Positions 39,610 to 55,597 of a stretch of 64,000 nucleotides of DNA are shown piece by piece. The translations under genes were made by a program, and so were the position numbers. The notes under the pieces are model-generated. The model saw only the letters and a program-made list of their open reading frames with translations, was not told the DNA's origin and did not search any database. How positions within the stretch are numbered: the stretch's first letter is position 1; each line of letters opens with the position of its first letter. The stretch covers positions 25,034 to 89,033 of the forward strand of contig JACPBF010000005.1 of assembly GCA_016180425.1 (NCBI GenBank). The letters are read 5' to 3'. The stretch is from Elusimicrobiota bacterium (GTDB taxonomy: Bacteria > Elusimicrobiota > Elusimicrobia > 2-02-FULL-39-32).

Positions 39610-39771
39610 TTTTTTGGTTTGATACATCAAATTCGTTCAAAGATTGTTTCTGAAAGGCGCAACGAACTTATCGCTGATATGTTCCATCGTATTCATTTTG
39701 TTGAGCGTTGGGGCAGAGGGATTAAATTGATACTGGACAAAGAACCATGTTATGCAAGTGTTATGTTTTGA
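39610..39771 (+). pseudogene. C-terminal fragment of an AlbA_2/HATPase_c_4-type (RecG-like) putative regulator
   Basis: Own translation: ...SERRNELIADMFHRIHFVERWGRGIKLILDKEP..., with no start codon. The open frame begins right after the stop at 39607-39609. It overlaps the 3' end of the convergent ATPase gene. Confidence 0.45.
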
Positions 39772-42406
39772 AGTGGTGTTTTAAGACACGCTCTATGCGC
39801 AAAAGGAGGATCTCTTTAGAAACAGGTTTTTTAATGTAGTCTTCAACTCCCAACTCTAGGCCGGCCATTTCATCTGTAGGTCCCGATTTTCCTGTAAAAA
39901 ATATCACCGGAGTTTGAATTCCCATTTCATTTTTTAGACGCATGAGTTTCATGCCATCCAAATGGGGCATTTCAATGTCGGATAAAATAATATCAAACTT
40001 CCCTTTCTCTAAAAGATCCAACGCCTCCACCCCATCTACCGCAGATGTAACAGCATAGTCCCGGACCCTAAGTAACTGTTCCAAAATGGCTCGTGTGTCC
40101 GCATCATCATCCACAATAAGGATGGAGTGACGGGCAATGGGTTGACTCGCTTCCAAAAAGGCGGAGGAGCTTCCCATCTTTATTTTTAAATCTGAAGGCG
40201 GAACAGCAGATTTTGGAATGGGAGGTTTTTGAACGGTGGGCTCCGGAACAGACGGTTTCGAAACAAAAAGGTTAGGCGCGGGAACCTGTATGGGAGATAG
40301 ACTCTCCCCCTCAATACTGCGGTAATATTCCGATTCGTCTGCCAGAACATCCTCTATAATGTCTTCTGGAGCGATCTCGAGATTTTTTACTTTCTCTACG
40401 GCGTGCTGATCTATAGTAAAATCACCGCGCTCTTTGGCGTATTTACGAATCTCCGAGATGGGCGCGTCCTGACGAATTAGGGCGGAAATCTCCGGATAGA
40501 AACGAATTATCTCATAGATTCCTGTGCGCCCCGAGTACCCTGTATTCTCGCACCTAGGGCAACCAACGGGTCTGGCCACTTTAGTGGGAAGTTCTCGGGC
40601 AAAAGGGGCCATAAGCCGAGACTCTTCATGAGTTAACGCAGAAAATTTCTTACAGTTATCACAAAGCTTCTTAACCAGAGTTTGAGCCACAATGCCCAAG
40701 ATGGTGTCTGCCATGGCGCTTCTTTGAATGCCTAATCTCTCCAAACGAAAAATGGCAGAAGTGGCGTTGCCCGTGTGCATGGTGGAAAGGGTTAAGTGGC
40801 CGGTACTTGCAAAGTCCAGTACGGTCTTTGCGGAAAACGAATCTCGTACCTCTCCTAAAAAGAGAATGTCTGGATCTTGTCGTACCGCACTTTTTAGAAG
40901 CGCTTCAAATGTAATTCCAGCTTTTTCGTTTACCTGCTGTTGTTTGGCGAGTGGGATTCTATACTCTACAGGATCTTCTACGGACATCAGGCTTCTTTTC
41001 TTGCAATCAATGTTGCTGAACAAACTATAAAGTGTCGTGGTCTTTCCAGTCCCCGTGGAACCTACAATGAGAACCAAACCCTGTCTCATATTGGAAAATT
41101 CAATCATATGCTTCGCTTGGAAAGGCGCCATTCCCAAATCTTCTAAACTTTTAGGACGGCTCCAAGGTTCGAGCAATCTCATCACAATACCTTCTCCATA
41201 GGGTGTTAAAGATGTGGCACAACGAATGGTGAGCGCTCTATTGGAGACGGTTACTTCAAAAGAACCGTCTTGCGGTTTCCTTTTTTCGGCAATGTCCATA
41301 TCGGCCATCGCCTTGTAGCGGGCAACCAACTTTGTATATTTACTATGATCCATCAGGAAAGCGTTGCGCATATCTCCATCCACACGAAACCGCACCACTA
41401 CATTCGACTCTCCCGGGTCTATATGGATATCGCTCGCCCTTTGAAGAACTGCCATATTAAGTACAAGAACGGAAAGTTTTGGGATCTCCACTCCAGAGAT
41501 ATCTTCTCCCTTAGAGATTCTAACCGCCATCTCTTGATCCGATTTATCCTGTCCACTCTCTTCTATTTTTAACAATGCCTCAATTGTGTCTGGTTCTGCA
41601 ATCAAAAACTTGGGATTTTTGGGTAGGGAAGGGTGTGTGCTTAAAAGCTCTATAACCTCTTCGTCAAATGGATTGCATAAGACAAAGACAGGATCGGTCT
41701 CCTTTCTCCAGCGTATCGCCAGAACTTTACTCTTTCGACAAAATATAATTGGCAGAATTTCTGGCAGGATTTCGTTGGGATCAATAATAGAGAGATACTC
41801 CAGTTCCAACGTTTTAGAAATCTGTTTGGCAACTTCTACTTTTGAAAAACCTAAACTAGATAAATGTGTGTAGAGATTCCGCGGGGACAAATCTTTGAGC
41901 TTTTTTTTCGCCTCTTCCGAAAGATCTGGATGATTTAAAAGAACCTCTTTATATTTAACAAAATTGCTGGAGTAGGCTGAGGGCTTTGCAGTTTCTTCTT
42001 GCTTCTTTAATTTCTCCCAAACTTTTCCAGTCTGGATATGTTTTTTTACAATATCGGATAGTTGTTTAAGATCAAACGTTTTAGAGAGATAGTCTACGGC
42101 GCCAACAGAAAATGCTTTCTGACGATTCACCTCAGTGTCTAAGGCGCTCAAAAAGATGACAGGCACATAGGCCATTTCCGGAGAAGATTTTATTTTTTCG
42201 CAGAGGGTATAGCCATCTATTTCTGGCATCATAATATCCGTAAAGATTAGGTTAGGAACCCGCCCGTCCAACACGCCTTGAATCTTGCTTACAAGATCGG
42301 CAGTCACAACCTCATACCCAGATTTTGTGAGATAGTGACTCACCAATGCTAAAACATTCTCATCGTCATCAATCGCTAAAATAAGAGGTTTGGAACTTTC
42401 GCTCAT
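39761..42406 (-). CDS. receiver - T2SSE_N - GspE/PilB-type secretion ATPase - receiver fusion protein
   Basis: N-terminal REC (ILAIDDDENV...FTDIMMPEIDG...FLSALD...YLSKTF). ATPase core (Walker A GSTGTGKTTT, DPDILFLGEVRD, GHLTLSTMHT, Zn motif CDNC...CPRC). C-terminal REC (ILIVDDDADT...LSDIEMPHLDG...FFTGKS...YIKKPV). Confidence 0.85.
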   Translation of the reverse strand: MSESSKPLILAIDDDENVLALVSHYLTKSGYEVVTADLVSKIQGVLDGRVPNLIFTDIMMPEIDGYTLCEKIKSSPEMAYVPVIFLSALDTEVNRQKAFSVGAVDYLSKTFDLKQLSDIVKKHIQTGKVWEKLKKQEETAKPSAYSSNFVKYKEVLLNHPDLSEEAKKKLKDLSPRNLYTHLSSLGFSKVEVAKQISKTLELEYLSIIDPNEILPEILPIIFCRKSKVLAIRWRKETDPVFVLCNPFDEEVIELLSTHPSLPKNPKFLIAEPDTIEALLKIEESGQDKSDQEMAVRISKGEDISGVEIPKLSVLVLNMAVLQRASDIHIDPGESNVVVRFRVDGDMRNAFLMDHSKYTKLVARYKAMADMDIAEKRKPQDGSFEVTVSNRALTIRCATSLTPYGEGIVMRLLEPWSRPKSLEDLGMAPFQAKHMIEFSNMRQGLVLIVGSTGTGKTTTLYSLFSNIDCKKRSLMSVEDPVEYRIPLAKQQQVNEKAGITFEALLKSAVRQDPDILFLGEVRDSFSAKTVLDFASTGHLTLSTMHTGNATSAIFRLERLGIQRSAMADTILGIVAQTLVKKLCDNCKKFSALTHEESRLMAPFARELPTKVARPVGCPRCENTGYSGRTGIYEIIRFYPEISALIRQDAPISEIRKYAKERGDFTIDQHAVEKVKNLEIAPEDIIEDVLADESEYYRSIEGESLSPIQVPAPNLFVSKPSVPEPTVQKPPIPKSAVPPSDLKIKMGSSSAFLEASQPIARHSILIVDDDADTRAILEQLLRVRDYAVTSAVDGVEALDLLEKGKFDIILSDIEMPHLDGMKLMRLKNEMGIQTPVIFFTGKSGPTDEMAGLELGVEDYIKKPVSKEILLLRIERVLKHHFKT

Positions 42407-42777
42407 TTTGATTTGTCGCCCTTTGGGGTTCCTCCTTGAGGACCCGCCACAATGGTTATGCCATCCATATAATCCCCCATTAAATTCAAAGTTCTACGGA
42501 TAGACTCCATATTTGTTTGGGCAATAGATTTCTCTAAAGAACGCGCATAATCACTTAAAGCGTCTACTCCATAAAGTTTTGCGCTTCCTTTCAACTTGTG
42601 AGCGCTCTGTTGAATCAATACCAGATCACCCGACTGCAAGAACTGTTTCATCTCTTGAATGTGTTGATTTGTATGATTAAGAAAAGCGGGAATCAGTTCA
42701 AAAATTTCTGGATCAACTTGAACAATGATTTTTTGTTGAGACCCCGAGTTTGGAGAAAAGGATTCAGTTCCCATCAT
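42403..42777 (-). CDS. Hpt (histidine phosphotransfer) domain protein
   Basis: QQSAHKLKGSAKLYG matches the Hpt HxxKG motif; 124 aa. 4-nt overlaps with both neighbours. Confidence 0.75.
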   Translation of the reverse strand: MMGTESFSPNSGSQQKIIVQVDPEIFELIPAFLNHTNQHIQEMKQFLQSGDLVLIQQSAHKLKGSAKLYGVDALSDYARSLEKSIAQTNMESIRRTLNLMGDYMDGITIVAGPQGGTPKGDKSK

Positions 42778-43160
42778 TTTCCAGCGCGCAGGTTCTTATC
42801 TATAATTTCAGGCAGTCCCTTTATCCCAGAACTTTTGGTTACATAATCCGCTGCTCCGACGGAAAAAGCCTTCGCCTTATCAACTTCGGACTCCAAAGAG
42901 CTAAAGAAAACAACTGGGATACTGGCTAGATTAGGTGTTTGTTTTAGCTGCGCGCAAAATGTGTACCCATCCATATCCGGCATCATAATGTCCAACAAAA
43001 TAAGATGTGCCAAATTTCCTTTGAGATGTTTCTGTACCTTGCTAGCCCTATCCACAGAAATCACTTTGTAGCCAGCTTGGGAAAGAATGTGTTCTACAAG
43101 GACTAAGATGCTTTTATCATCATCAATAATCAAGATGACTGGTTTTTTAATCTTATTCAT
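42774..43160 (-). CDS. single-domain response regulator (receiver)
   Basis: ILIIDDDKS, LILLDIMMPDMDG, VVFFSS and DYVTKS: all canonical receiver residues are present. Confidence 0.85.
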   Translation of the reverse strand: MNKIKKPVILIIDDDKSILVLVEHILSQAGYKVISVDRASKVQKHLKGNLAHLILLDIMMPDMDGYTFCAQLKQTPNLASIPVVFFSSLESEVDKAKAFSVGAADYVTKSSGIKGLPEIIDKNLRAGK

Positions 43161-43543
43161 ATGCCACTATTTTCCGTCTGAACCATAAATTTTTTAATTT
43201 TATTAGTAAATTCTTCCCCTTTAAACGGCATACTGATATAGCCTTTAGCTCCTGTTCTTATTGTAATTTTATGTAGAAACTCTTCCTCCTTGCCAGACAT
43301 AAATACAATGTTTAACCTCCTTGAGGAATTTTCTTCTGCCTTTAAAATCTTACACACCTCTTCTCCTTTTATATCCGGTAACTCACAATCCAACAGAATA
43401 AGTTGGTAGTATCCCAGTTTCGCTTTTCTAACTCCCTCCTCGCCGCTTTCCGCAATATCCACATAAAAACCTACAGATTCCAGCCTAAATTTTAACACAC
43501 TATTCGCATCAGAATTATCGTTAACAATTAATATTTTATCCAT
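43157..43543 (-). CDS. atypical single-domain receiver (acidic pocket N-D, conserved Lys replaced by Met)
   Basis: ILIVNDNSD, LILLDCELPDIKG and IVFMSG, with GYISMPF where receivers normally have K-P-F. Confidence 0.8.
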   Translation of the reverse strand: MDKILIVNDNSDANSVLKFRLESVGFYVDIAESGEEGVRKAKLGYYQLILLDCELPDIKGEEVCKILKAEENSSRRLNIVFMSGKEEEFLHKITIRTGAKGYISMPFKGEEFTNKIKKFMVQTENSGI

Positions 43544-43563
43544 CTTATAATTCTATTTAAACC

Positions 43564-43875
43564 CTAAGCGGAAAGGACGTGGGCGATTTTGTTGAGGAGC
43601 TCTGCGGGGTCAAAAGATTTAAGGATATAATCATCTGCGCCAAGCTCGCGCCGAACGCGCGAATTATCCTCTTGACCCTTGGCAGAAAGGACGATGACGC
43701 GGATCGATTGCGTTTCAGGCAAAGCTCTCAAGCGGGCAAGCATTGTTTCACCATCCATCTCAGGCATGGAAACGTCAAGGAGAATCAAGTCGGGTTTTTT
43801 TCGGCACGCCAACTCAAGTCTCTGAACACCATTAAAGGCCTCGATAGTTTCATAACCATTTGCCCGAAGATGGAG
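43564..43875 (-). pseudogene. 5'-truncated receiver domain (lacks beta1 and the acidic pocket)
   Basis: The frame opens just after a TGA at 43876-43878 with LHLRANGYETIEAFNG...PDLILLDVSMPEMDG...VLSAKG...YILKSF. There is no room for beta1/DD. The only in-frame start is a TTG at 43812. Confidence 0.5.
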
Positions 43876-44242
43876 TCAAAAGATTTTTAATCTCATTAAG
43901 AAGCGTTTGAACTTCAAACGGTTTAGGGATGAACCCATCCGCTACTACCCTTTTGTTTTCGCGGGTTAGTTCTTCATAGGCCATGGCGCTAAAGAGAACC
44001 ACTGGAATTTTTTCAAATTGCGCGTCGTTCTTAAGCAGTTCGCACACCTTCAATCCATTCATCTTGGGGAGCATGATGTCCAAAAGAATCAGGTCAGGCT
44101 TTTCTTTTCTTGCCATTTCCAGTCCCATTTCACCATCATAGGCCTTCAAAACCTCGTACCCATGCGCACGTAGCCTTACTTCCAGCGCAAGCACAAGATA
44201 AACTTCGTCATCTACAATGAGGATTCTATGTTTTTTCAACAA
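43850..44242 (-). CDS. single-domain response regulator (receiver)
   Basis: ILIVDDEVY, LILLDIMLPKMNG, VVLFSAM and FIPKPF. The track's upstream extension overlaps the kinase gene. A likely TTG start at 44242 or 44239 is preceded by GGCGGAAG. Confidence 0.8.
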   Translation of the reverse strand: MLKKHRILIVDDEVYLVLALEVRLRAHGYEVLKAYDGEMGLEMARKEKPDLILLDIMLPKMNGLKVCELLKNDAQFEKIPVVLFSAMAYEELTRENKRVVADGFIPKPFEVQTLLNEIKNLLTPSSGKWL

Positions 44243-44246: not shown

Positions 44247-45755
44247 TTAACTTCCGCCTTGTTCGAGGAAAATATTGGTGTGATGCGTTTCTTCCTGAGC
44301 ATGACGCAAAAGTTTAAACAGATCGTCCCCATCCACACCGTAAAAGGCGTTTCCTGCTCCTATAGAAACGGGTAGACCCTCCTCTGAAACACCGCATCCT
44401 TTGTCCCTTCTCCATTGATTAACCGCTTTCCCAATCCTATCCCTAATCGCTTGCGCCCCCTTCATATCTGTCGTGGAAAGGATGACCAGCCACTGAGGCT
44501 CAAGGACGGTCACGTGATCCAAACTTTTTAACTGCGGACGTATAAACTCTTTTAATTCCTCTAGATTGGCCCGCGTCCCTATGAGCAAAGGCTTACAGTC
44601 GAATACGGTTAAAATGATTGTTCCGGATAACGGATGGTCAGACAAGCTCTTTTTAAAAAGTTGGAAGCATTGTTCCAATTCATTCTTGGGTGTATAGATG
44701 GGTAATTTAAAGGTAACGACCGTCCCTTTCCCAATTTCGGAAGCAATCGAAATGTTCCCCCCATGTTGCTCTAGGATATTTTTGCATATGCTTAACCCCA
44801 ACCCAGTGCCCCCTGCTTTATAATCGCCCACTTGAGAGAATTCAAGAAACAGTTTAGGCAAATCCTCTTTAGCAATGCCAACGCCATTATCTGTTATCGC
44901 CACGCAAACATTCCCTCCCTCCTCCCATAGCGTAACTCTAATCCATCCGTCTGAGCTAGTAAATTTAATAGCATTCATTAGAAGGTTTCTGAGCACCTGT
45001 TTAATTTTATCGGGATCTACCGATGCTTCTAAGTCGTCCGGTCCCTCACACTTTATTCTCCTTTTTCCCAGAAGGCTCTTCGTTTCTTGCAAAGTTCCCA
45101 TGATAAGCCCATGAATTTTATGCTTGCCTAGGATAAGCCGTATTTGCCCAGAATGGATCTTGTAACTATCCAAAATATTATTGATGAGAATGGTCAATCG
45201 TTGAGAAGCGCTTCCCAAAATTTTTATGAATTTTCTCTGCTCATCTGTTATTATACCTAAGAGACCATCCTCTAAAAGTTTCGACGACTCCATTATAATC
45301 GTAACCGGAGTTTTAAGTTCATGGGCGATATTGGCAATAAACTTATCCTTGAACACCAGAAGCTCTCCCATCTTAAGGTTAGCATTCTGAAGTTCAGCAT
45401 GGCTCATCTTAAGATCTGCTTCAACCCGTTTGCGTTCCGAGATATCTATTAAATAGATGTAAACTTTATTCTTCTTCGTAAAACAGAATATCTCTTCCTC
45501 ATAAAACTTCTTATCGGCCACTATATTTCGAACGAACGCGATCAACTCTCCTTGGGAGTTTTTCATTTGCCCGCATAAAATGTTTAGTTCCTGAAGTACC
45601 GGATGCTCACCACCAAGCTTTTTCAAATCTGGGAAATGTGAGAGCGCGGCAGGATTAAGGTAGAGTATAGACAAACATTCATCCGTCACTACGATCGGGT
45701 TAGGGATCATTTCTACAAAGAACTCTTTCCCCATCTGATCAAGCTTAGTTCTCAT
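44247..45755 (-). CDS. PAS - HisKA - HATPase_c sensor histidine kinase with degenerate GGDEF-like C-terminal domain
   Basis: H-box IANIAHELKTPVT, N/G boxes (LRNLLMNAIKF, DNGVGI, GGTGLGLSICK). The C-terminal ~150 aa end ...VSIGAGNAFYGVDGDDLFKLLRHAQ without a GGDEF/GGEEF signature. Confidence 0.8.
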   Translation of the reverse strand: MRTKLDQMGKEFFVEMIPNPIVVTDECLSILYLNPAALSHFPDLKKLGGEHPVLQELNILCGQMKNSQGELIAFVRNIVADKKFYEEEIFCFTKKNKVYIYLIDISERKRVEADLKMSHAELQNANLKMGELLVFKDKFIANIAHELKTPVTIIMESSKLLEDGLLGIITDEQRKFIKILGSASQRLTILINNILDSYKIHSGQIRLILGKHKIHGLIMGTLQETKSLLGKRRIKCEGPDDLEASVDPDKIKQVLRNLLMNAIKFTSSDGWIRVTLWEEGGNVCVAITDNGVGIAKEDLPKLFLEFSQVGDYKAGGTGLGLSICKNILEQHGGNISIASEIGKGTVVTFKLPIYTPKNELEQCFQLFKKSLSDHPLSGTIILTVFDCKPLLIGTRANLEELKEFIRPQLKSLDHVTVLEPQWLVILSTTDMKGAQAIRDRIGKAVNQWRRDKGCGVSEEGLPVSIGAGNAFYGVDGDDLFKLLRHAQEETHHTNIFLEQGGS

Positions 45756-45795: not shown

Positions 45796-46383
45796 TCAAC
45801 CTAGATTACTTTTAATGGTTTCAGTACCGAACATAAATACCAAATGGCCTTTCACATTCGTCTTTTGAAAACTAAAAACAAGCTCTATCAAAACTCTTTC
45901 TTCTAAAGATAATCTCGCTCTAGTTGTAATCTGACTTACAATGCTATCCCCTGTCCCCCAACTCAAGTTGCCTCCATAATGTAGGACGTGAGTTAATCCC
46001 AACTGACTTGAGAATGCGGATAGATACTTTCCAACGATAATATTGGTAAATTCTATTACGGCGTTCATAGCCATATCATCCAAATTTTGAGTGGCGCGCG
46101 CCTTTCGTTTTAACAAGAGATCGGCTAATGTAAATGTGGACCATTTCGATAAGATCATCAATATAGATGCTTTAACAATGTCCCCTGTGAGAGTATAGGA
46201 GATTACGGAGACCAAAGGCTCCTCCGATATTCCACTCAGAAAAGTATTGGGGACGACTTTATAATTTAGGGTATGAATATCTATAGAGACAGGTTCATTG
46301 ACCATTTTTGAGATCGCGACCGCGGATTCCTGACTTGCGACTTGGTCTATTTTTTTAAGTTTTTCTAAATTCATAATTTGCAT
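45796..46383 (-). CDS. CheC/CheX-family phosphatase-like protein
   Basis: DDMAMNAVIEFTNIIVGKYLSAFS fits the D/S-x3-E-x2-N-I-x2-G CheC-type site; the first-half site is degenerate. 195 aa, in che operon context. Confidence 0.55.
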   Translation of the reverse strand: MQIMNLEKLKKIDQVASQESAVAISKMVNEPVSIDIHTLNYKVVPNTFLSGISEEPLVSVISYTLTGDIVKASILMILSKWSTFTLADLLLKRKARATQNLDDMAMNAVIEFTNIIVGKYLSAFSSQLGLTHVLHYGGNLSWGTGDSIVSQITTRARLSLEERVLIELVFSFQKTNVKGHLVFMFGTETIKSNLG

Positions 46384-46466: not shown

Positions 46467-48074
46467 TCAACCACTGTTTAAAGTCTTGCCTTTTTTAGAC
46501 AGAATTAAATGGGCTACATCCAGAATTAGGATCGCTTCTCCGGATCCGATGATGGCTGTTCCAGAAAAAAAACGGCTTTCCCGAAGCAACCGATGCAGCG
46601 GTTTCACCACCACTTCCTGTGTGCTCAACAGGCTATCTACAGCCAGACCCAGTCGTTCGTCATCCTTTCGAACCACCACAATCGGTTGTCTCGGCAATAA
46701 AGGCGCATCTAAACCAAAAATGGCGCTCAGGCGTGTCATCGGGATATCTTCTTTATCTAGAACAATCGCCTCGTAATTCAGCATTCCTTTAATGTCCCCT
46801 GAGTCTGCCGCCACTAACCTATCCACATCCGACACCGGGATAGCATAGATCTTCCCCTGCACCTGAACAAAAAGGGTATTGATCACAGCCAATGTAAGGG
46901 GTATTTCCAACGCAAAGGTTGTGCCTTGTTTGGTTGTGGATTTTACTCTGACGGATCCACCAATGGACTCAATCTTTTTCCTCACAATAGTCATTCCCAG
47001 CCCTCTTCCTGAAACCGTGCTAACTTCTTTGGTGGTGGAGACACCGTTAAAAATAGAATTCATGGTCTCTTCTTGAGTGGCTTCGGGATTCAAAATCCCC
47101 CGTTTCATCGCCATAATCTTTATCTCTTCTAAGTCTAAGCCCTGACCATCATCGGACACTTCAATTGAGACCGCTTCTTTGCTTCGGGAGGCGGTTAAAC
47201 GAATGGTTCCAACCAGCGGTTTCCCCGTCCGCTCTCTTAGATCAGGAGTCTCCAGTCCATGGTCCACAGCATTCCTTAAAAGATGCACCAAAGACTCGCC
47301 AATTTCATCTATCACCACTCTATCCAACTCAATCTCACTCCCTTCCAGAATAAGCTCCACCTCTTTTTTCTCCGCTTTTGCCACGTCCCGGATCATGCGC
47401 GGAAAGCGATTAAACACAAATCCAATGGGCACCATGCGCGATTGCATAACCTGGTATTGAAGCTCGCTTACAATGCGGCCTAACATTTCTGTGGCAGCGC
47501 TGAACTCTGGGTTCTCAAGATTTTCTCGAATGCGATCAAACCGCATCTTGGTCACTAAAAGTTCCTCGGACAAGTTTAGCAAACGGTCCAACCTTTCTAC
47601 TTTTACCTCAATGGCTTGGATTTTTTCAGGTGTTTCCATTTTCATCTCAGCCTCAAGGGAGGGCGCAGTAGGGGCGGGGGACTCGGCCAAGCCTTCAACC
47701 CCAAGGACTTTTAGTCTTTCTACGAGTTCTTTAGAATCTAATTCAGAACCCTCCTTGGAAATAAGTTTTAGGCAGGAGTCGAGAAAATCGAAACACTTAA
47801 ATAGAATGTCCGAACATTTTTCTAAACTTATCTTTTTTTGTTTGATTCTTTCTAAAATGTCCTCAACCGCGTGGCATAAAGAGGAGATATTTTGGTAGCC
47901 CATTGCCGCGGCAATGCTTTTAAGAGTATGCATGGCCCAAGATATCTGGTAAAGAAGATTGGTGTCTGTGGGCGCCTTTTCAAGTTTTACAAGAGCGCCG
48001 TTCACGGTTTCCACATGCTCGCGCGCTTCTTTTAAAAAGGCCTCTTTATATTTATCCATCTGGAGATTACCCAT
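46467..48074 (-). CDS. cheA: chemotaxis histidine kinase CheA
   Basis: P1 Hpt (MHTLKSIAAAMG), dimerisation region, HATPase (LVHLLRNAVDHGLE, DDGQGLD, GRGLGMTIV) and a C-terminal CheW-like domain. Confidence 0.9.
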   Translation of the reverse strand: MGNLQMDKYKEAFLKEAREHVETVNGALVKLEKAPTDTNLLYQISWAMHTLKSIAAAMGYQNISSLCHAVEDILERIKQKKISLEKCSDILFKCFDFLDSCLKLISKEGSELDSKELVERLKVLGVEGLAESPAPTAPSLEAEMKMETPEKIQAIEVKVERLDRLLNLSEELLVTKMRFDRIRENLENPEFSAATEMLGRIVSELQYQVMQSRMVPIGFVFNRFPRMIRDVAKAEKKEVELILEGSEIELDRVVIDEIGESLVHLLRNAVDHGLETPDLRERTGKPLVGTIRLTASRSKEAVSIEVSDDGQGLDLEEIKIMAMKRGILNPEATQEETMNSIFNGVSTTKEVSTVSGRGLGMTIVRKKIESIGGSVRVKSTTKQGTTFALEIPLTLAVINTLFVQVQGKIYAIPVSDVDRLVAADSGDIKGMLNYEAIVLDKEDIPMTRLSAIFGLDAPLLPRQPIVVVRKDDERLGLAVDSLLSTQEVVVKPLHRLLRESRFFSGTAIIGSGEAILILDVAHLILSKKGKTLNSG

Positions 48075-49177: not shown

Positions 49178-49564
49178 TCAAGCCAACCCACCCCCCCCCC
49201 CCCGCATAATTTTTGTCAATTCTTCTTCTTCAATAGGTTTTGTAAGGTACCCCAAAATTCCAAGAGTTTCGCACTCTTTTATACAAGCAGTCTGGCCAAC
49301 GGCCGTAAGCATAATGACTTGTGTCTTACAATCCACGGCGCGAACTTCCTCGAGAAATTTAATCCCTTCCCTTTCCCCTTCTCGCATTACGATATCCAAT
49401 AGGATTAGATCTGGATATTGCGTTCGATACTGTTCCATCGCCTTTTTTTTTGAATCCGCTTCGTAAATTTCCACAGGCTCCTTGAACAGCCCTTTTTTTG
49501 AGATGATGGATTTAATCAAATCCCTCATAAAGGCGGAATCATCTACAATCAGAATCCTTTTCAT
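49178..49564 (-). CDS. cheY: CheY-like single-domain response regulator
   Basis: ILIVDDSAFMR, LILLDIVM, VIMLTAV and YLTKPI. The C-terminal tail MRGGGGGLA is encoded by a homopolymer tract. Confidence 0.85.
   Translation of the reverse strand: MKRILIVDDSAFMRDLIKSIISKKGLFKEPVEIYEADSKKKAMEQYRTQYPDLILLDIVMREGEREGIKFLEEVRAVDCKTQVIMLTAVGQTACIKECETLGILGYLTKPIEEEELTKIMRGGGGGLA
49191..49203. repeat. 13-nt homopolymer (C on plus strand, G on coding strand)
   Basis: Counted directly: 49191-49203 are all C. Located 11 nt upstream of the cheY stop codon, which is 49180-49178 on the minus strand. Confidence 0.95.
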
Positions 49565-50178
49565 TTATTTTTTCTCCTCCTTAGTTTTTGAGGTGAATCT
49601 TTTACGGAAATACCCTCCACATTCACAGGTTGGCGCGCTTCTGTCTCAAGATTAGGTTTTTCTGGCTCTTCCATGCCTTGTTCCCCATGTTTGCGGGCCA
49701 TATCAGAAAGCCGCTCGAGTTCTTCTGTGGAAAGCACCCGCGCTAGATCCAAGAGAATGATTAAACGGTTTCCAACCGTTACCACACCATCCACATATTC
49801 TTCATGAATTGTGGTGATCAGTTTAGGGGGAAGTTTTATCTCTGATTTTGGAATTCTTAACACTTCTGTGACCTCGTCAACAAGAAGTCCAAATAAATTC
49901 TCTTCCTGTTGAGTGATCACGATATGTCTGGGCCCTTCTTTGGACGCGCTTAAGAAAAAACGGGCCGTAAGGTTAATAATCGCTACTATTTCTCCGCGAA
50001 CGTTGATGAGCCCTTGAACAAAGTCAGGAGAATCCGGGATTGGCGTAATCTGCCCTGTCCTAACAATCTCTTGAATGGCTCCAATCGGCACACCAAACTC
50101 TTCGTCTCCCACGTGAAAAACAATTAACTGAACGGTTTGAGCTTCTTCAGTTAGTAAGGGCATTGTTTTATCCGACAT
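49561..50178 (-). CDS. cheW: CheW-like coupling protein with acidic/basic C-terminal extension
   Basis: QLIVFHVGDEEFGVPIGAIQEIV...VRGEIVAIINL...LLVDEVTEVL is a CheW domain. Start set to the ATG at 50178 (TAATATG junction with the MCP stop). Confidence 0.85.
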   Translation of the reverse strand: MSDKTMPLLTEEAQTVQLIVFHVGDEEFGVPIGAIQEIVRTGQITPIPDSPDFVQGLINVRGEIVAIINLTARFFLSASKEGPRHIVITQQEENLFGLLVDEVTEVLRIPKSEIKLPPKLITTIHEEYVDGVVTVGNRLIILLDLARVLSTEELERLSDMARKHGEQGMEEPEKPNLETEARQPVNVEGISVKDSPQKLRRRKNK

Positions 50179-50179
50179 A

Positions 50180-53100
50180 TTAATTCCTCTCGGCCTTGCT
50201 ATTTTTAGCGCCTTCCACAACCTTAAACCTTTTTAAGGCTGTCCTCAATTCTTCAGCCAGCGTAGAAACATTTTGCGCGGAAGTGGACATCTGCTGCATG
50301 GAAGTGGTCTGTTGCTGAATGGCCGTGGACATCTGTTCCGCGCCGACAGCGGCCTGTTCCGATGTGGATGCGATCTCTTCCGTGGTTTTGGCTACGGCTT
50401 GAGCGCCGCCAGCCTGTTCGGATGTGGCCTTAGAAATGTCTTGGGCTTTTGTCGTTATTTCCTGGGCGCCCACCCCGATCTGATCTAAAATGCCCAGCGC
50501 TTGGTTAACGATCTCTATGGACTCCGTGACTTGCTGGGTACCTGCCGTCATCCCACCCACAACATCTGTTGTGGACTCTACAATCGTACCGACCATTCCC
50601 TCAATTTGCACCGCCGCTTTTTTGGTTCCTTCAGCGAGTTTGCGAATCTCGTCGGCCACAACCGCGAATCCTCGGCCCGCCTCTCCCGCGCGCGCAGCTT
50701 CAATGGCCGCGTTTAAAGCCAAGAGATTGGTTTGATCTGCAATATCTTTTGTGGTGCCTACGATCACGCCAATTTCTTTGGCTCGCTTATCCAAATCTTT
50801 TACTGTGCCTGTATTCGCTTTCACGATGTCGTCAATAGATTTAAGCCTAGTGGCAGCCTGTTTTCCAGCCTCGCTTCCACGTTGAGCCAGTTTTGACGCT
50901 TCTTGTGTTACCTCCGCGGCAGAGCGCGCATTCAAGGCTCCTTGCTGGATTGACTTGGAAAGTTCTGTAATAACCCTCGTGCTTCCTTCCAATTTCTTCG
51001 ATTGATCCTTGGCGCCCACTGCGATTTGTTGTGTTGTCTTGGCTGCGGCGGACAACGCGGTGTTGACCTGCTGCGAAGATTCAGCTAATTGACCGGAAGC
51101 AGACGACACTTTTACAGAACTGTCTATCGCAAGCCGTATCAAAGCTCCCAAATCATCGAAGGACTTGTTTAATGCGTCCGCCAATGTGCGAATGTCCCCT
51201 CGGGTTTCAATCGCCATCTGTTGCGAGAGATCCCCTTGGGAGAGTGCCACAGCTAATCGAATAACTTCCTGCACAGGGGTTGCGATAGAATTAATTAATT
51301 CGTTTAGGGTGTCCACAATATTTTTCCAACTGCCACCCACTCCCTCCACCTTGGCCCGTTCATTTAGCTTTCCCTCTTTTCCAGCCACTTGAGCCACACG
51401 CGACACTTCGTTGGCGAGCCGATTCAAGTCATCTACCATCTTGTTCAGTGTGTTCTTAAGCTCGAGTATCTCACCCTTTACATCCACGGTTATTTTTTGG
51501 GTCAGATCCCCGGCGCTAATGGCTGTAGAGACTTGCGCTATGTTTCGAACCTGTGAGGTAAGGTTAGCGGCCATGGTATTCACATTGTCAGTCAGGTCCT
51601 TCCAAGTTCCTGCCACTCCGGGCACTGCGGCCTGTCCGCCAAGTTTTCCATCCGTACCTACTTCGCGGGCCACACGCGTAACCTCGGCCGAGAAGAGATT
51701 GAGGTTGTCCACCATCTTATTGAGAGTTTCTTTAAGCTGTAGAATCTCTCCTTTAACCTCTACCGTGATCTTTTGTTTCAAATCTCCATTTGCAACCGCA
51801 GTGGCCACTTGCGCGATATTGCGCACTTGCCCTGTGAGATTGGAAGCCATGGCATTCACATTATCTGTGAGATCTTTCCATGTTCCTGTTACTCCAGGGA
51901 CTGCAGCCTGTCCGCCAAGTTTTCCATCTGTACCTACTTCACGAGCCACACGTGTAACTTCGGCTGCAAATATATTGAGACTGTCCACCATCCTGTTGAT
52001 TGTCTCCTTAAGTTGAAGAACTTCCCCCTGCGCTTCCACAGTAATCCTTTGAGCGAGATCTCCTTTGGCGACTCCGGTAGCCACTTGCGCTATGTTACGA
52101 ACCTGATTGGTTAGGTTAGTAGCCATGGCATTCACCCGATCAGTTAAATCTTTCCAAGTGCCTGCGACCCCGGGAACTTGAGCTTGACCTCCAAGCTTTC
52201 CTTCAGTGCCCACCTCGCGGGCCACACGCGTAACCTCGGCTCCGAAAACATTTAGACCGTCCACCATCTTATTGATAGTTTCTTTAAGCTGTAGAATCTC
52301 CCCTTTAACTTCCACGGTGATCTTCTGTCCCAGATCTCCATTGGCGACAGCAGTTGTAACCTGCGCGATATTGCGCACTTGGCTTGTAAGATTGGAAGCC
52401 ATGACATTCACATTGTCTGTGAGCTCCTTCCACGTACCCGTAACACCCATCACCGAAGCTTGTCCGCCAAGTTTTCCATCTGTACCCACTTCCCTCGCCA
52501 CACGTGTAACCTCGGATGCAAATACGTTAAGGCTGTCCACCATCCTGTTGATTGTCTCCTTAAGTTGAAGAACTTCCCCCTGCGCTTCCACAGTAATCCT
52601 TTGAGCGAGATCTCCCCTAGCCACTGATGTAGCCACTTGAGCGATGTTTCGCACCTGATTGGTTAAATTGGTGGCCATCGCATTTACGCGGTTGGTCAAT
52701 TCTTTCCAAGTGCCGGCCACACCGGGCACTTCAGCCTGGCCTCCAAGCTTCCCTTCAGTTCCCACTTCCCGTGCCACGCGCGTAACCTCGGCCGAGAAGA
52801 GATTGAGGTTGTCCACCATCTTATTGAGAGTTTCTTTAAGCTGTAGGATCTCACCTCGTACTTCCACAGTGATTTTTTGAGCCAGGTCTCCGTTAGCAAC
52901 AGCTGTGGCCACTTGCGCTATGTTACGAACCTGCAATGTAAGGTTCGTAGCCATCGCGTTCACGTTGTCCGTCAGTTCCTTCCAAGTTCCCGTAACACCC
53001 GGCACAACCGCTTGGCCTCCGAGTTTTCCTTCCGTCCCTACTTCTTTTGCGACACGGGTTACTTCCCCTGAAAAAGCCCGTAGATTGTCCACCATCTTAT

Positions 53101-55540: not shown

Positions 55541-55597
<57 letters not shown>

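What the first reader, a model, noticed from the sequence alone, without database searches (positions are those of the whole stretch)
39761..44242. Chemosensory operon ends in a multi-receiver/Hpt relay and a GspE/PilB-type ATPase sandwiched between two receiver domains
Seen: downstream of cheA/cheB/cheY/cheW on the same strand lie a PAS histidine kinase, four single-domain receivers, an Hpt protein and an 881-aa REC-T2SSE_N-GspE/PilB ATPase-REC protein. The last four genes are joined by 4-nt ATGA-type overlaps (43157-43160, 42774-42777, 42403-42406), which suggests translational coupling. The ATPase keeps Walker A (GSTGTGKTTT), the Asp/His boxes and the CxxC...CxxC zinc motif, so it looks catalytically competent. 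Both flanking receivers keep the DD, D, S/T and K residues. No platform protein (PilC/GspF), pilin, secretin or PilM-Q gene is adjacent. Inference: the hexameric secretion/pilus motor ATPase could itself be the phosphorylation-controlled output of a Che-like pathway, through an Hpt-mediated relay. I do not know of a characterised example of a doubly receiver-gated GspE/PilB ATPase. Eight receiver domains in one operon (one of them 5'-truncated) also suggests phosphate-sink or branching logic.
Basis: partly seen in the sequence, partly recalled or inferred. Interest (0 to 1): 0.8.

Follow-up and report, generated by a model that had tools for sequence, protein, structure and literature searches.

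The report
Receiver-flanked pilus-type motor ATPase
A secretion/pilus-type motor ATPase with a phosphorylation-receiver domain at each end, paired with a small phosphotransfer protein, belongs to a widespread but unstudied bacterial family; here it closes a chemotaxis-like operon, so such a motor may be switched directly by phosphorylation.

Summary
Window 39761-42406 (-) encodes an 881-aa REC / 4-helix+N1 / PilB-GspE ATPase / REC protein. All catalytic, zinc-site and receiver residues are intact. It is preceded, with ATGA overlaps, by an Hpt gene and receiver genes, and it ends a 14-gene che-containing operon.

It is not unique. More than 100 full-length homologues (about 45% identity) exist under about a dozen phylum labels, all uncultured. 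In 86 related loci an Hpt gene accompanies the ATPase in 76, and a hybrid histidine kinase lies nearby in 53. CheW, CheB and MCP genes occur in 0 of 86. PilC/GspF, secretin and GspL/M genes occur in 0 of 86, against 34 of 65 control PilB/GspE loci. In 22 of 86 loci a zinc-ribbon membrane protein and/or pilin-like genes are nearby; the window has neither.

The protein is therefore best read as the terminal response regulator of a kinase-receiver-Hpt-receiver phosphorelay. The che link is specific to this lineage. It is not obviously accidental, because the nearest che-cluster relative carries the orthologous kinase and receiver array downstream of cheA.

I found no characterised member. The mechanical substrate is unknown. 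Verdict: interpretation partly supported; a new variant of a known kind; moderate-to-high interest.

The parts
54465..55364 (-). ParA/MinD-like P-loop ATPase, first gene of the operon
   Evidence: Pfam AAA_31 1.1e-45 and CbiA. NCBIfam MinD/ParA-type hits are all below cut-off. A homologue (58% identity) holds the same position in L335.
50180..54448 (-). 1422-aa chemoreceptor with a long poly-HAMP array and a C-terminal MCP signalling domain
   Evidence: The translation shows about a dozen near-identical ~90-aa repeats. No signal peptide or membrane segment was evident by eye. The homologue in L335 (74% identity) carries Pfam HAMP/HAMP_2 repeats and MCPsignal.
49561..50220 (-). CheW
   Evidence: Pfam CheW on the same gene in contig L001. 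54-60% identical to CheW of L334-L336.
49178..49564 (-). CheY (single receiver); a poly-C/G tract lies in its 3' end (49191-49203)
   Evidence: Pfam Response_reg 4.9e-23. Tract length differs by 1 nt in contig L001.
48078..49160 (-). CheB (receiver plus methylesterase)
   Evidence: Pfam CheB_methylest 1.3e-51 and Response_reg 5.5e-21.
46467..48074 (-). CheA (Hpt, dimerisation, HATPase and CheW-like domains)
   Evidence: Pfam. Homologues up to 68% identical, named CheA from Phycisphaerae and Omnitrophica.
45796..46383 (-). CheX/CheC-like protein (weak match)
   Evidence: Pfam CheX 2.1e-4 and CheC 6e-4, both below the gathering scores. The position after cheA is conserved in L334-L336.
44247..45755 (-). 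Histidine kinase: N-terminal sensor region (weak PAS), HisKA, HATPase_c and a C-terminal ~140-aa GGDEF-like remnant
   Evidence: Pfam HisKA 1.2e-14, HATPase_c 4e-32, PAS_8 0.0049. The C-terminal region matches GGDEF only at E=0.037, but full-length homologues carry PF00990. Orthologue in L334: 41% over 493 aa, there fused to a receiver.
43850..44242 (-). Canonical single receiver (TTG start 4 nt after the kinase stop); matches the receiver fused to the kinase in L334
   Evidence: Pfam Response_reg 1.6e-24. Residues checked. 36% identical to the receiver of the L334 hybrid kinase and 45-48% to the receivers that follow it.
43564..43812 (-). 5'-truncated receiver remnant (beta1, alpha1 and the acidic pair are missing)
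   Evidence: The frame continues upstream as GYETIEAFNG... and overlaps the previous gene's 3' end out of frame. Alignment. Identical in contig L002.
43157..43543 (-). Atypical receiver (N-D instead of D-D; Met in place of the conserved Lys)
   Evidence: Pfam Response_reg 1.2e-18. Alignment.
42774..43160 (-). Canonical receiver, close paralogue of the ATPase's N-terminal receiver; with the next gene it corresponds to the fused REC-Hpt proteins of the sister loci
   Evidence: 48% identity over 128 aa to ATPase residues 1-130; phmmer 2.5e-38. REC-Hpt fusions lie upstream of the ATPase in L083, L174, L211, L212 and L219, and inside the ATPase protein in L088.
42403..42777 (-). Hpt phosphotransfer protein (His in AHKLKGSA)
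   Evidence: Pfam Hpt 4.3e-11. ATGA overlaps on both sides. An Hpt domain is present in 76 of 86 family loci, and 67 of 74 Hpt domains keep the H-x-h-K/R-G/S motif.
42032..42406 (-). ATPase residues 1-125: receiver 1 (D13, D14, D57, S87, K109); its last helix extends to residue 139
41567..41989 (-). ATPase residues 140-280: four short helices plus the N1 (GSPII/MshEN_C) alpha/beta domain; no c-di-GMP motif
   Evidence: Pfam MshEN 4.9e-5. AlphaFold secondary structure. Motif scan 0 of 120.
40337..41494 (-). ATPase residues 305-690: N2 and C-terminal ATPase domains with Walker A/B, Asp and His boxes and the tetracysteine site
   Evidence: Foldseek: PilF 5oiu, target TM-score 0.92, rmsd 2.1 A; also GspE 4pht and PilB 5tsh.
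40136..40309 (-). ATPase residues 700-757: Pro-rich disordered linker
   Evidence: pLDDT below 50. This stretch is variable in the family alignment.
39761..40135 (-). ATPase residues 758-881: receiver 2 (D767, D768, D810, T838, K860), plus the stop codon

Best explanation
The 881-aa protein is an intact PilB/GspE-class ATPase. Such enzymes work as hexamers. It carries a canonical receiver at each end. It is best read as the last response regulator of a multistep His-Asp-His-Asp phosphorelay, and its dedicated phosphodonor is the Hpt protein encoded by the overlapping upstream gene.

Shown:
- The domain order is REC, four helices, N1, N2, C-terminal ATPase domain, a disordered linker and REC.
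- All catalytic and phospho-acceptor residues are conserved.
- The protein belongs to a large uncharacterised subfamily. Its marks are this architecture, an adjoining Hpt gene, no c-di-GMP motif, loss of the Arg in the PQDG-R motif, and no adjacent platform gene.

Inferred:
- The kinase at 44247-45755 phosphorylates one of the stand-alone receivers. These receivers are the equivalent of the receiver array of the family's usual hybrid kinase, split into separate genes. The phosphoryl group then passes to Hpt and on to receiver 1 and/or receiver 2 of the ATPase.
- Phosphorylation gates hexamer assembly, nucleotide turnover or engagement of a membrane partner.

The operon is a composite of three modules:
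1. A chemosensory core (ParA-like, poly-HAMP MCP, CheW, CheY, CheB, CheA, CheX-like).
2. A kinase plus receiver array, which also follows this type of che cluster in the nearest relative.
3. The family-wide REC-Hpt-ATPase module.

The mechanical substrate is not encoded in the window. In about a quarter of family loci the ATPase lies near a zinc-ribbon single-pass membrane protein and 250-320-aa proteins with canonical prepilin N-termini. The most likely job is therefore to drive a small pseudopilus-like assembly. That step is the weakest part of the account.
For: - Architecture and motifs.
- Predicted fold: mean pLDDT 86; the core superposes on PilF, PilB and GspE.
- Family size and spread: the best 120 hits listed are 773-845 bits, almost all covering 97-100% of the query. 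80 species-level genome loci carry about a dozen phylum labels. About 343 50%-identity clusters reach E<=1e-30 with the N-terminal 300 aa alone; this count includes some multi-receiver proteins.
- Hpt pairing: 6 of 6 Pfam-annotated loci and 76 of 86 overall. Fusions occur as REC-Hpt-REC-MshEN-T2SSE-REC (P0039/L088, no assembly gaps) and as HK-REC-Hpt directly upstream (L086, L217, L220, L223, L225). The Hpt His motif is kept in 67 of 74 domains.
- A hybrid kinase lies within 6 kb in 53 of 86 loci.
- Operon continuity in the window: the largest intergenic gap is 83 nt, and the last four genes overlap by 4 nt.
- Orthologous kinase and receiver array downstream of cheA in L334.
- No adjacent PilC/GspF in 0 of 86 loci, against 34 of 65 control loci by the same method (Fisher p = 5e-16).
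- Pilin-like and zinc-ribbon neighbours in 22 of 86 loci, scattered over the tree. Pfam N_methyl is above threshold in 5 of 5 tested, and three also match a 3keto-disac_hyd/DUF1080-type domain, two of them near its gathering score and one below it.
- Receivers acting on PilB in trans are established. Phosphorylated PixG binds PilB1 (PMC11181946). DrdR stimulates PilB and PilT ATPase activity (PMC13507683). HK-REC-REC-PilB-PilC operons exist in an Omnitrophota genome and in metagenome contigs.
Against: - There is no biochemical evidence for any phosphotransfer step, for ATPase activity or for oligomerisation.
- The window contains no platform, pilin, zinc-ribbon protein or peptidase, so the output is unknown.
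- All family members sampled are MAGs or single-cell genomes, and none has phenotype data.
- About 10 of 86 loci lack a detectable Hpt. Several of these are truncated contigs.
- The family loses the PQDG-R arginine that 66 of 74 ordinary PilB/GspE-type proteins keep. Its ATPase cycle could therefore differ from the textbook one.
- Which receiver accepts from Hpt, and whether phosphorylation activates or inhibits, cannot be deduced. The predicted structure gives no confident inter-domain packing (pTM 0.54).
- Sequence comparison did not resolve orthology between the stand-alone receivers and the receivers of hybrid kinases.
Confidence: 0.62

Rival explanations
1. One reading: the ATPase is the output of the chemosensory pathway. 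CheA~P phosphorylates one or more of the stand-alone receivers, these pass the phosphoryl group to Hpt, and Hpt passes it to the ATPase. The chemoreceptor array would then directly gate a pilus/secretion-type motor. The adjoining kinase would be a second input or a modulator.
For: - All 14 genes are on one strand with gaps of at most 83 nt. No internal terminator-like site stands out: 9 found against 18 expected from shuffles.
- The nearest che relative (L334) also has the orthologous kinase and receivers right after cheA and the CheX-like gene.
- A more distant relative (L335) has an Hpt gene and four receivers right after cheA-cheC-cheD. This che type therefore recurrently adjoins relay parts.
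- Chemosensory systems that act on PilB through CheY-like proteins are known (PMC11181946).
Against: - From the ATPase side, no CheW, CheB or MCP gene lies within 10 kb in 86 genome loci or in 9 REC-fused metagenome loci.
- The closest relative of the N-terminal module (L331-L333, same sample series) has Hpt plus a split ATPase, with no che genes and no kinase.
- A dedicated kinase sits between the che core and the relay, so CheA is not required.
- L336 has this che type with no relay.
- The L334 contig ends before any output gene, so a che-ATPase link is seen only in this one population.
Confidence: 0.3
2. The protein is not a filament or secretion motor. It is a phosphorylation-controlled ATPase that works without any type IV filament machinery, for example as a signalling or scaffold protein whose nucleotide state regulates another process. 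This has been proposed for Myxococcus PilB in exopolysaccharide control.
For: - No platform, secretin or alignment-complex gene lies next to any of 86 family members. About half of ordinary PilB/GspE genes have PilC/GspF next door.
- 64 of 86 loci also lack pilin-like neighbours.
- The family lacks the PQDG-R arginine.
- PilB acting as a signalling protein is documented (PMC5544727, listed; reviewed in PMC11656802).
Against: - The N1 domain, the tetracysteine site and every catalytic residue are retained. In GspE/PilB the N1 domain docks on the membrane complex (PMC11656802).
- 22 of 86 loci, in several separate clades, do carry prepilin-type proteins and a membrane protein near the ATPase.
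- Platform and pilin genes could lie elsewhere in these genomes.
Confidence: 0.2
3. Fortuitous or decaying junction: a mobile REC-Hpt-ATPase cassette landed behind an unrelated che/kinase operon and is on its way to loss. No functional coupling exists.
For: - One receiver in the array is truncated and one is degenerate.
- The closest relative of the module sits among DUF4143 ATPase and toxin-antitoxin genes and is split into two genes.
- A DUF4143 ATPase gene also abuts the window's ATPase.
- GC drops to 33% just downstream, in the 38001-40000 window.
Against: - The ATPase, Hpt and flanking receivers keep every functional residue.
- The 4-nt overlaps argue for a long-standing, co-translated unit.
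- The arrangement is identical in independent contigs from two other samples.
- The kinase and receivers supply exactly the parts the family module normally has upstream.
Confidence: 0.08
4. An MshE-like c-di-GMP-controlled ATPase in which the N-terminal T2SSE_N/MshEN region, rather than the receivers, is the main regulatory input.
For: Pfam MshEN hit. The predicted structure has four short helices ahead of N1, as in the MshEN_N bundle. MshEN is a known high-affinity c-di-GMP receptor (PMC5013675).
Against: Neither the 24-residue motif RLGxx(L/V/I)(L/V/I)xxG(L/V/I)(L/V/I)xxxxLxxxLxxQ nor a loose RLGxxLL core occurs in any of 120 family members. The cited paper shows that changing these residues abolishes binding.
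Confidence: 0.03

Closest known systems
PilB / GspE (EpsE, PilF) extension and secretion ATPases of type IV filament systems
   Same: Same fold and catalytic apparatus: N1, N2 and C-terminal domains, Walker A/B, Asp and His boxes, and the tetracysteine zinc site. phmmer E about 1e-77 to V. vulnificus and V. cholerae GspE. Foldseek target TM-score 0.92 to T. thermophilus PilF.
   Different: - Scores far below the NCBIfam equivalog cut-offs for GspE (354 vs 630), PilB (339 vs 676) and TfpB (329 vs 850).
- Carries a receiver at each end.
- Lacks the Arg of PQDG-R (0 of 78 family members against 66 of 74 controls).
- Never lies next to PilC/GspF, secretin or GspL/M in 86 loci.
REC-MshEN-T2SSE architecture (Geobacter metallireducens Gmet_3473) listed by Wang et al. 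2016, PMC5013675, Supplementary Table 4
   Same: An N-terminal receiver fused to an MshEN/N1 region and a T2SSE ATPase. Reported from Beta-, Gamma- and Deltaproteobacteria. Listed without a functional reference.
   Different: That entry is only a catalogue line. It has no C-terminal receiver, and no Hpt partnership or neighbourhood is described. I could not retrieve Gmet_3473, so whether it belongs to the same subfamily was not tested.
MshE-type c-di-GMP-activated ATPases (V. cholerae MshE, P. aeruginosa PA14_29490)
   Same: A regulatory module N-terminal to the same ATPase core. The idea that the N-terminal region sets motor activity is shared.
   Different: [quoted passage not shown] Here the regulatory input is predicted to be Asp phosphorylation.
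Receiver proteins that regulate PilB in trans: Synechocystis PixG (Tax1 system), Xanthomonas DrdR, Pseudomonas PilG/PilH
   Same: A phosphorylatable CheY-like domain contacts or regulates the pilus extension ATPase, in some cases downstream of a chemotaxis-like kinase (PMC11181946, PMC13507683, PMC10519157). HK-REC-REC-PilB-PilC operons in Omnitrophota and in metagenome contigs look like this trans arrangement.
   Different: Here the receivers are covalently part of the ATPase, there are two of them, and an Hpt step is interposed. No T4P machinery is adjacent.
Multistep phosphorelays with a free Hpt protein (LuxU, RcsD-type, yeast Ypd1-type relays)
   Same: Kinase, receiver, Hpt and terminal receiver are all encoded. 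The Hpt has the H-x-x-K-G signature, and its best NCBIfam hit, far below cut-off, is LuxU.
   Different: The terminal response regulator's output is a motor-type ATPase, not a DNA-binding or c-di-GMP domain. The hybrid kinase is split into separate genes in this window.
Chemosensory systems with non-flagellar outputs (Wsp with WspR REC-GGDEF; the Pil-Chp and Frz types) - comparison from general knowledge
   Same: A Che core is encoded together with a response regulator whose output is an enzyme rather than a flagellar switch binder.
   Different: The Che-to-ATPase link is seen only in this one population. An extra kinase and an Hpt lie between them. There is no CheR in the operon.

Membership tests
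PilB/GspE-class T2SSE ATPase (Pfam PF00437) | Profile match above the curated threshold | tested here: met
   339.8 bits against a cut-off of 24.9, covering residues 309-675.
PilB/GspE-class T2SSE ATPase (Pfam PF00437) | Walker A Lys, Asp box, Walker B with catalytic Glu, His box | tested here: met
   K455, E477-D478, E519 and H537/H544 are present and invariant or nearly so in 120 homologues.
PilB/GspE-class T2SSE ATPase (Pfam PF00437) | Tetracysteine zinc site in the C-terminal domain (extension/secretion type, not PilT type) | tested here: met
   C582, C585, C616 and C619 are invariant in 120 of 120.
PilB/GspE-class T2SSE ATPase (Pfam PF00437) | N1 (GSPII / MshEN_C) domain ahead of N2 | tested here: met
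   Pfam MshEN scores 23.7 bits against a cut-off of 23.1, which is marginal. The model shows an alpha/beta domain at residues 203-279 with pLDDT of about 86-93 (10-residue block means).
PilB/GspE-class T2SSE ATPase (Pfam PF00437) | Bilobed N2-CTD fold | tested here: met
   Foldseek: PilF 5oiu_B, target TM-score 0.92, rmsd 2.1 A over 382 columns.
PilB/GspE-class T2SSE ATPase (Pfam PF00437) | Hexamer formation and ATP hydrolysis | not testable with these tools
   Needs purified protein. No multimer prediction tool was available.
GspE proper (type II secretion ATPase, TIGR02533) | Equivalog score and a gsp operon context (GspF, GspL, GspM, secretin) | tested here: not met
   354 bits against a cut-off of 630. 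No gsp genes in the window or in 86 family loci.
PilB proper (type IVa pilus assembly ATPase, TIGR02538) | Equivalog score and an adjacent PilC platform | tested here: not met
   339 bits against a cut-off of 676. PilC/GspF adjacent in 0 of 86 family loci against 34 of 65 control loci.
MshE-type c-di-GMP receptor ATPase | Tandem 24-residue motif RLGxx(L/V/I)(L/V/I)xxG(L/V/I)(L/V/I)xxxxLxxxLxxQ | tested here: not met
   Neither the strict nor a loose form occurs in the window protein or in any of 120 homologues. The motif is taken from PMC5013675.
Two-component response regulator | Receiver with acidic pair, phospho-acceptor Asp, Ser/Thr and Lys | tested here: met
   REC1: D13, D14, D57, S87, K109. 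REC2: D767, D768, D810, T838, K860. All are conserved family-wide.
Two-component response regulator | Phosphorylation changes output activity | not testable with these tools
   Requires biochemistry.
Multistep His-Asp-His-Asp phosphorelay | Kinase, intermediate receiver, Hpt with a phosphorylatable His, and terminal receiver encoded together | tested here: met
   HK 44247-45755, receivers 43850-44242 and 42774-43160, Hpt 42403-42777 (AHKLKGSA) and the ATPase receivers.
Multistep His-Asp-His-Asp phosphorelay | Conserved association of the Hpt with the terminal regulator | tested here: met
   An Hpt domain is adjacent or fused in 76 of 86 loci. There is one six-domain fusion protein without assembly gaps.
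Multistep His-Asp-His-Asp phosphorelay | Demonstrated phosphotransfer | not testable with these tools
   Requires in vitro assays.
Chemosensory pathway with this ATPase as output | Complete Che core (MCP, CheW, CheA, CheY and the adaptation enzymes CheB and CheR) | tested here: inconclusive
   MCP, CheW, CheA, CheY, CheB and a CheX-like gene are present. No CheR is found in the operon or the window.
Chemosensory pathway with this ATPase as output | Conserved linkage of che genes with the output gene | tested here: inconclusive
   From the ATPase side: 0 of 86 genome loci and 0 of 9 REC-fused metagenome loci have che genes. From the che side: the nearest relative keeps the kinase and receivers, but its contig ends before an output gene.
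Type IV filament system (T4P/T2SS/Com/Tad) | Platform protein, pilin(s) and prepilin peptidase together with the ATPase | tested here: not met
   None is in the 64-kb window. In the family, pilin-like and/or zinc-ribbon membrane genes occur in 22 of 86 loci, a peptidase in 1, and a platform in 0. The rest of the genome could not be searched.

The most novel reading that the evidence does not exclude
The REC-N1-T2SSE-REC proteins, their Hpt, and (where present) the zinc-ribbon membrane protein and the lectin-domain prepilins form a previously unrecognised, PilC-independent, minimal type IV filament-like machine. Its motor is switched on or off in cis by a phosphorelay. In this lineage the switch has been wired to a cytoplasmic poly-HAMP chemosensory array. 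That would be the first case of a chemosensory pathway phosphorylating a pilus/secretion motor ATPase itself rather than an adaptor protein.
Probability: 0.2. Interest if true: 0.85.

Novelty: new variant of a known kind. Interest (0 to 1): 0.58.

Why it matters
PilB/GspE ATPases power type IV pili, type II secretion and DNA uptake. How these motors are switched is an active question. A 2024 review of PilB control (PMC11656802) lists c-di-GMP, PilZ/FimX, Pil-Chp and phage peptides as regulators. It does not mention receivers fused to the motor.

The family found here puts two phospho-acceptor domains on the motor polypeptide and keeps a dedicated Hpt next to it, under about a dozen phylum labels. 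That gives a genetically compact and biochemically tractable system (Hpt~P plus one protein). It can be used to test how phosphorylation controls hexamer assembly or the ATPase cycle of this motor class.

The consistent lack of an adjacent platform gene, together with the recurrent zinc-ribbon and prepilin neighbours, raises the question of whether a simpler filament machine exists.

For this window specifically, the che-kinase-relay-ATPase operon is the only example seen in which a chemosensory array is encoded with such a motor. This makes the Che-to-motor hypothesis directly testable.

Tried and rejected
1. The first scan of genome contigs with the single protein was swamped by generic receiver peptides and returned unrelated response regulators. 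It was replaced by a scan with the 75-sequence family alignment.
2. An exact-DNA search for the window in genome contigs found nothing. The source genome is not in that collection, so I could not look for platform or pilin genes elsewhere in the genome.
3. Organism identity: the type III glutamine synthetase gives at most 72% identity to MAGs labelled Planctomycetia, Omnitrophota and Deltaproteobacteria. CheA homologues are named Phycisphaerae and Omnitrophica. The phylum is left unresolved.
4. The metagenome-contig scan picked generic ATPase peptides and returned mostly ordinary PilB/GspE loci. I used these as a positive control for PilC/GspF detection instead.
5. Mapping the window's stand-alone receivers onto the first, middle and last receivers of hybrid kinases gave only 15-40-bit scores and no pattern. 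Only the architectural colinearity is claimed.
6. I tested whether the receiver of REC-Hpt proteins generally resembles the ATPase's receiver 1. It does not (24-38% identity in six loci). The 48% identity in the window is therefore a lineage-specific duplication.
7. An apparent ATPase-zinc-ribbon fusion in L246 is an artefact of a scaffold gap (a run of X) and was withdrawn.
8. The promoter and terminator scans gave no more sites than shuffled sequence, so they say nothing about internal promoters.
9. The context of the kinase homologue P0395 proved unrelated, with sulfate assimilation and TonB genes around it.
10. A hand-made degenerate pattern for the kinase's sensor domain (PNP...YLNPAA) hit mainly cyanobacterial genes. 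Its only useful hit was L350.
11. Literature searches for a characterised REC-fused PilB/GspE found none. Galperin's 2006 response-regulator census could not be retrieved under the PMC id I recalled, so I cannot exclude that it lists the architecture.
12. The N-terminal 300-aa search of the representative library is inflated by multi-receiver proteins. It gives only a rough family size.

Full report
WHAT IS THERE

On the minus strand, from 55364 down to 39761, lie 14 genes. The largest gap between neighbours is 83 nt. In order they are:
- a ParA/MinD-like ATPase;
- a 1422-aa poly-HAMP chemoreceptor with no membrane segment evident by eye;
- CheW, CheY, CheB, CheA and a weak CheX/CheC-like protein;
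- a histidine kinase;
- a canonical receiver;
- a 5'-truncated receiver remnant;
- an atypical receiver;
- a second canonical receiver;
- an Hpt protein;
- an 881-aa ATPase.

Pfam assigns the 881-aa protein T2SSE (1.9e-101), two Response_reg stretches and a marginal MshEN/T2SSE_N hit. The three ATGA overlaps joining the last four genes are in the sequence. Pfam scans of 31 further ORFs of at least 120 aa, and phmmer with E. coli Gsp/Hof proteins, find no platform, pilin, secretin, GspL/M or peptidase gene anywhere in the window.

Three details need correcting:
- One of the four single-domain receivers after the kinase is a dead fragment. An independent contig identical over 6.8 kb shows that this is a real deletion.
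- Another (43157-43543) has N-D instead of the acidic pair and Met instead of the conserved Lys.
- The receiver just before Hpt (42774-43160) is 48% identical to the ATPase's own N-terminal receiver.

THE PROTEIN

The closest solved relatives are Vibrio GspE/EpsE, Thermus PilF and Geobacter PilB, with E between 1e-77 and 1e-65 over residues ~270-690.

An AlphaFold model built on 75 homologues has mean pLDDT 86 and pTM 0.54. Its parts are:
- receiver 1, whose last helix extends to residue 139;
- four short helices (147-200);
- an N1 alpha/beta domain (203-279);
- N2 (308-412) and the C-terminal ATPase domain (428-699);
- a disordered Pro-rich linker (700-757);
- receiver 2 (760-880).

The core superposes on PilF with a target TM-score of 0.92 and rmsd 2.1 A.

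In 120 homologues the following are invariant or nearly so:
- the Walker A Lys, the Asp box, the catalytic Glu and both His-box histidines;
- the four zinc cysteines;
- all five signature positions of both receivers.

The protein scores far below the NCBIfam equivalog cut-offs for GspE, PilB and TfpB, so it is an orthologue of none of them.

Two negative signatures define the family:
- The arginine of the PQDG-R motif is never Arg in 78 family members. In a control set of metagenomic T2SSE ATPases (which included a few family members) it is Arg in 66 of 74. I do not know what this change does.

THE FAMILY AND ITS NEIGHBOURS

The protein database returns well over 100 full-length homologues at about 45% identity, all with the same architecture. 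None is closer than 47% (best BLASTP identity to a full-length homologue).

A scan of species-representative genomes with the family alignment gave 80 loci. Their labels are Desulfobacterota, Elusimicrobiota, Omnitrophota, Acidobacteriota/Aminicenantes, Nitrospirales, Chloroflexota, Gemmatimonadota, Coriobacteriia/Actinomycetota, Fermentibacteria, Planctomycetota, Victivallales and Clostridia. All are MAGs or single-cell genomes. Six further loci carry precomputed Pfam annotation.

I called ORFs in all 86 loci. I searched them with the window's own proteins, with E. coli Gsp/Hof proteins and with two neighbour families found along the way. The results were:
- An Hpt domain is present in 76 of 86 loci. 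It is usually the gene immediately upstream, overlapping the ATPase start. Otherwise it is fused to the upstream kinase, to a receiver (REC-Hpt) or, in P0039/L088, to the ATPase itself (REC-Hpt-REC-MshEN-T2SSE-REC, with no assembly gaps).
- A histidine kinase, typically HK-REC-REC or HK-REC-REC-REC, lies within 6 kb in 53 of 86.
- CheW, CheB and MCP genes: 0 of 86.
- PilC/GspF, secretin, GspL and GspM genes: 0 of 86.
- In 22 of 86 loci, scattered across the tree, the ATPase lies near a ~170-aa protein and/or one to three 250-320-aa proteins. The first has an N-terminal zinc ribbon, one membrane helix and a conserved PIRxGTYxTDxxTDxCIxNLW segment. The others have canonical prepilin N-termini (KGFTLIELLVV...). 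Pfam N_methyl is above threshold in 5 of 5 tested, and three also match a 3keto-disac_hyd/DUF1080-type domain, two of them near its gathering score and one below it.

As a positive control, the same method found PilC/GspF next to 34 of 65 ordinary PilB/GspE genes from metagenome contigs (Fisher p = 5e-16). Clustering of all neighbouring ORFs revealed no other widely shared gene.

The window protein groups with L083, L086, L088, L174, L212 and L219. In four of these a fused REC-Hpt protein precedes the ATPase (L083, L174, L212, L219). In L088 the REC-Hpt unit is part of the ATPase protein, and in L086 the Hpt is fused to the upstream kinase. No pilin-like gene is adjacent in any of them. The window's receiver 42774-43160 plus Hpt is the same unit as two overlapping genes.

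THE CHE SIDE

CheA has much closer relatives than the ATPase, up to 68% identity, named Phycisphaerae and Omnitrophica. Three contexts could be read:
- L334 (CheA 63% identical): CheW, CheX, CheY, CheB, CheA and a CheX-like gene are followed by a hybrid kinase orthologous to the window kinase over its whole length (41% over 493 aa). The match includes the N-terminal sensor region and the C-terminal GGDEF-like remnant. The kinase is fused to a receiver. Then come a REC-REC protein, a single receiver and the start of another receiver, where the contig ends.
- L335 (59%): the same ParA / poly-HAMP MCP / CheW / CheY / CheB / CheA / CheC order is followed by CheD, an Hpt gene, four receivers and several kinases. 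No T2SSE gene lies within 10 kb.
- L336 (58%): nothing of the kind follows.

This type of che cluster therefore tends to be followed by relay components. The kinase and receiver array of the window is inherited together with the che core.

The REC-Hpt-ATPase end is the family-wide module. Its nearest relative (47% identity over the N-terminal module; same sample series) is an Hpt plus a split ATPase, lying among DUF4143 ATPase and toxin-antitoxin genes, with no che or kinase genes. A DUF4143 ATPase gene also abuts the window's ATPase.

HOW IT MOST LIKELY WORKS

Shown: a catalytically intact PilB/GspE-class ATPase with two canonical receivers, an Hpt kept beside it across phyla, and a kinase and receivers upstream.

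Inferred:
- The kinase phosphorylates a stand-alone receiver. This is the split equivalent of a hybrid kinase's own receiver.
- Hpt carries the phosphoryl group to D57 and/or D810 of the ATPase.
- Phosphorylation gates hexamer assembly, the ATPase cycle or docking to a membrane partner. The long helix leaving receiver 1 and the tethered receiver 2 are the obvious transmission elements. The model gives no confident inter-domain packing, so neither the sign nor the site of regulation can be stated.
- The paralogue of receiver 1 (42774-43160) is either the relay's intermediate receiver or a competitor for Hpt~P. In six other loci the corresponding receiver does not resemble receiver 1, so this is a local duplication.

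Whether CheA also feeds the relay cannot be decided. Operon structure and the che-side comparisons allow it. The ATPase-side census does not require it.

What the motor moves is unknown. The recurrent prepilin and zinc-ribbon neighbours suggest a small pseudopilus-like assembly, but this window has none, and the rest of the genome could not be searched.

COMPARISON WITH WHAT IS KNOWN

- Receivers regulating PilB in trans are established. Phosphorylated PixG binds PilB1 downstream of a chemotaxis-like kinase (PMC11181946). The tandem-receiver protein DrdR binds PilB and PilT and stimulates their ATPase activity (PMC13507683).
- Operons of the form PAS-kinase, REC, REC, PilB, PilC occur in an Omnitrophota genome and in several metagenome contigs. 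The fusion family looks like a cis version of this, with an Hpt step added.
- Wang et al. 2016 list REC-MshEN-T2SSE (Gmet_3473) as a domain architecture, with no functional reference.
- A 2024 review of PilB regulation does not mention fused receivers.
- My literature searches found no characterised member. These searches cover open-access text only.

VERDICT

- The "output of a Che pathway" part is possible but specific to this lineage.
- The claim of rarity is wrong. The family is common in uncultured anaerobe-rich lineages, but it is unstudied.
- I rate it a new variant of a known kind: a response regulator whose output is a PilB/GspE motor, within a conserved Hpt relay and without an adjacent platform gene.

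LIMITS

- All relatives are at most 47% identical.
- The loci were collected with two conserved peptide patterns.
- Neighbour detection used ORF translations and phmmer at E<=1e-3.
- One apparent fusion proved to be a scaffold-gap artefact and was withdrawn.
- No biochemical step has been tested.

Noticed in passing
window 49191-49203: A run of 13 C (G on the coding strand) sits inside the 3' end of cheY. An otherwise identical 12-kb contig from another sample (L001) has 12 C, which changes the CheY tail (128 vs 132 aa). This is either slipped-strand variation or an assembly or sequencing error at a homopolymer.
   Followed up: partly
window 43812-43880: The truncated receiver's frame continues upstream (GYETIEAFNG...) and overlaps, out of frame, the 3' end of the preceding receiver gene. 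This is the scar of a deletion between two tandem receiver genes. It is identical in contig L002.
   Followed up: yes
window 44247-44690 (kinase residues ~360-502): The C-terminal ~140 aa of the histidine kinase looks like a GGDEF domain that has lost its GGDEF signature. Pfam gives only E=0.037, but homologues covering 95% of the query (P0410, P0413) carry PF00990, and the region is conserved in the L334 orthologue.
   Followed up: partly
window 50180-54448: A 1422-aa chemoreceptor made of about a dozen near-identical ~90-aa HAMP-type repeats, with no membrane segment evident by eye. Local GC is 50% against ~40% for the window. It is preceded by a ParA/MinD-like ATPase, an arrangement recalling ParA-type positioning of cytoplasmic chemoreceptor arrays (general knowledge). 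The operon has CheB but no CheR.
   Followed up: partly
window 55481-55600: Upstream of the ParA-like gene there is a 12-bp-stem hairpin followed by a T run (55510-55481, minus strand). Nearby is a tandem CTGT-type repeat (seen as MSVCLSVCLSVCL in translation, ~55540-55600).
   Followed up: no
L331:2800-5764 (also L332, L333): In the same sample series, the closest relative of the ATPase's N-terminal module is encoded as Hpt plus two separate genes: REC-MshEN (331 aa) and T2SSE-REC (547 aa). The split lies at the N1/N2 linker. The locus is flanked by AAA_14/DUF4143 ATPase genes and a Gp49/HTH toxin-antitoxin pair. A DUF4143 gene (38176-39609) also abuts the window's ATPase.
   Followed up: partly
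L085:12628-14850, L087:12523-13775 and about 20 other loci: A recurrent gene pair sits near family ATPases. One gene encodes a ~170-aa zinc-ribbon single-pass membrane protein with a conserved PIRxGTYxTDxxTDxCIxNLW segment. The other encodes 250-320-aa prepilin-type proteins, several with a 3keto-disac_hyd/DUF1080-like domain. No platform gene is adjacent.
   Followed up: partly
family alignment, window protein residue S382: The Arg of the PQDG-R motif is present in 66 of 74 T2SSE ATPases of a metagenomic control set but is never Arg in 78 to 120 members of the receiver-flanked family (A, S, T, G or V instead). The functional consequence is unknown.
   Followed up: partly
L255, L256, L257, L259, L261: A second, more distant group of T2SSE ATPases (745-785 aa) carries only a C-terminal receiver. 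One of them (L256) has an MCP gene on the opposite strand nearby. Receiver fusions to this ATPase class may have arisen more than once.
   Followed up: no
L350:1470-7595; also L254, L258, L269, L304: Operons of the form PAS-histidine kinase, one to three single-domain receivers and an ordinary MshEN-T2SSE PilB, followed in all but L254 by a T2SSF PilC. They occur in an Omnitrophota genome and in metagenome contigs, and look like a trans version of receiver control of PilB.
   Followed up: partly
window 57226-61116 and 19612-24153: Two very large ORFs. One is a 1296-aa protein with an N-terminal hydrophobic segment whose repeats look Kelch-like by eye (no domain search was run on it). The other is a 1513-aa protein with only a weak ChaN/Tiki-type haem-binding hit. 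Neither was examined further.
   Followed up: no
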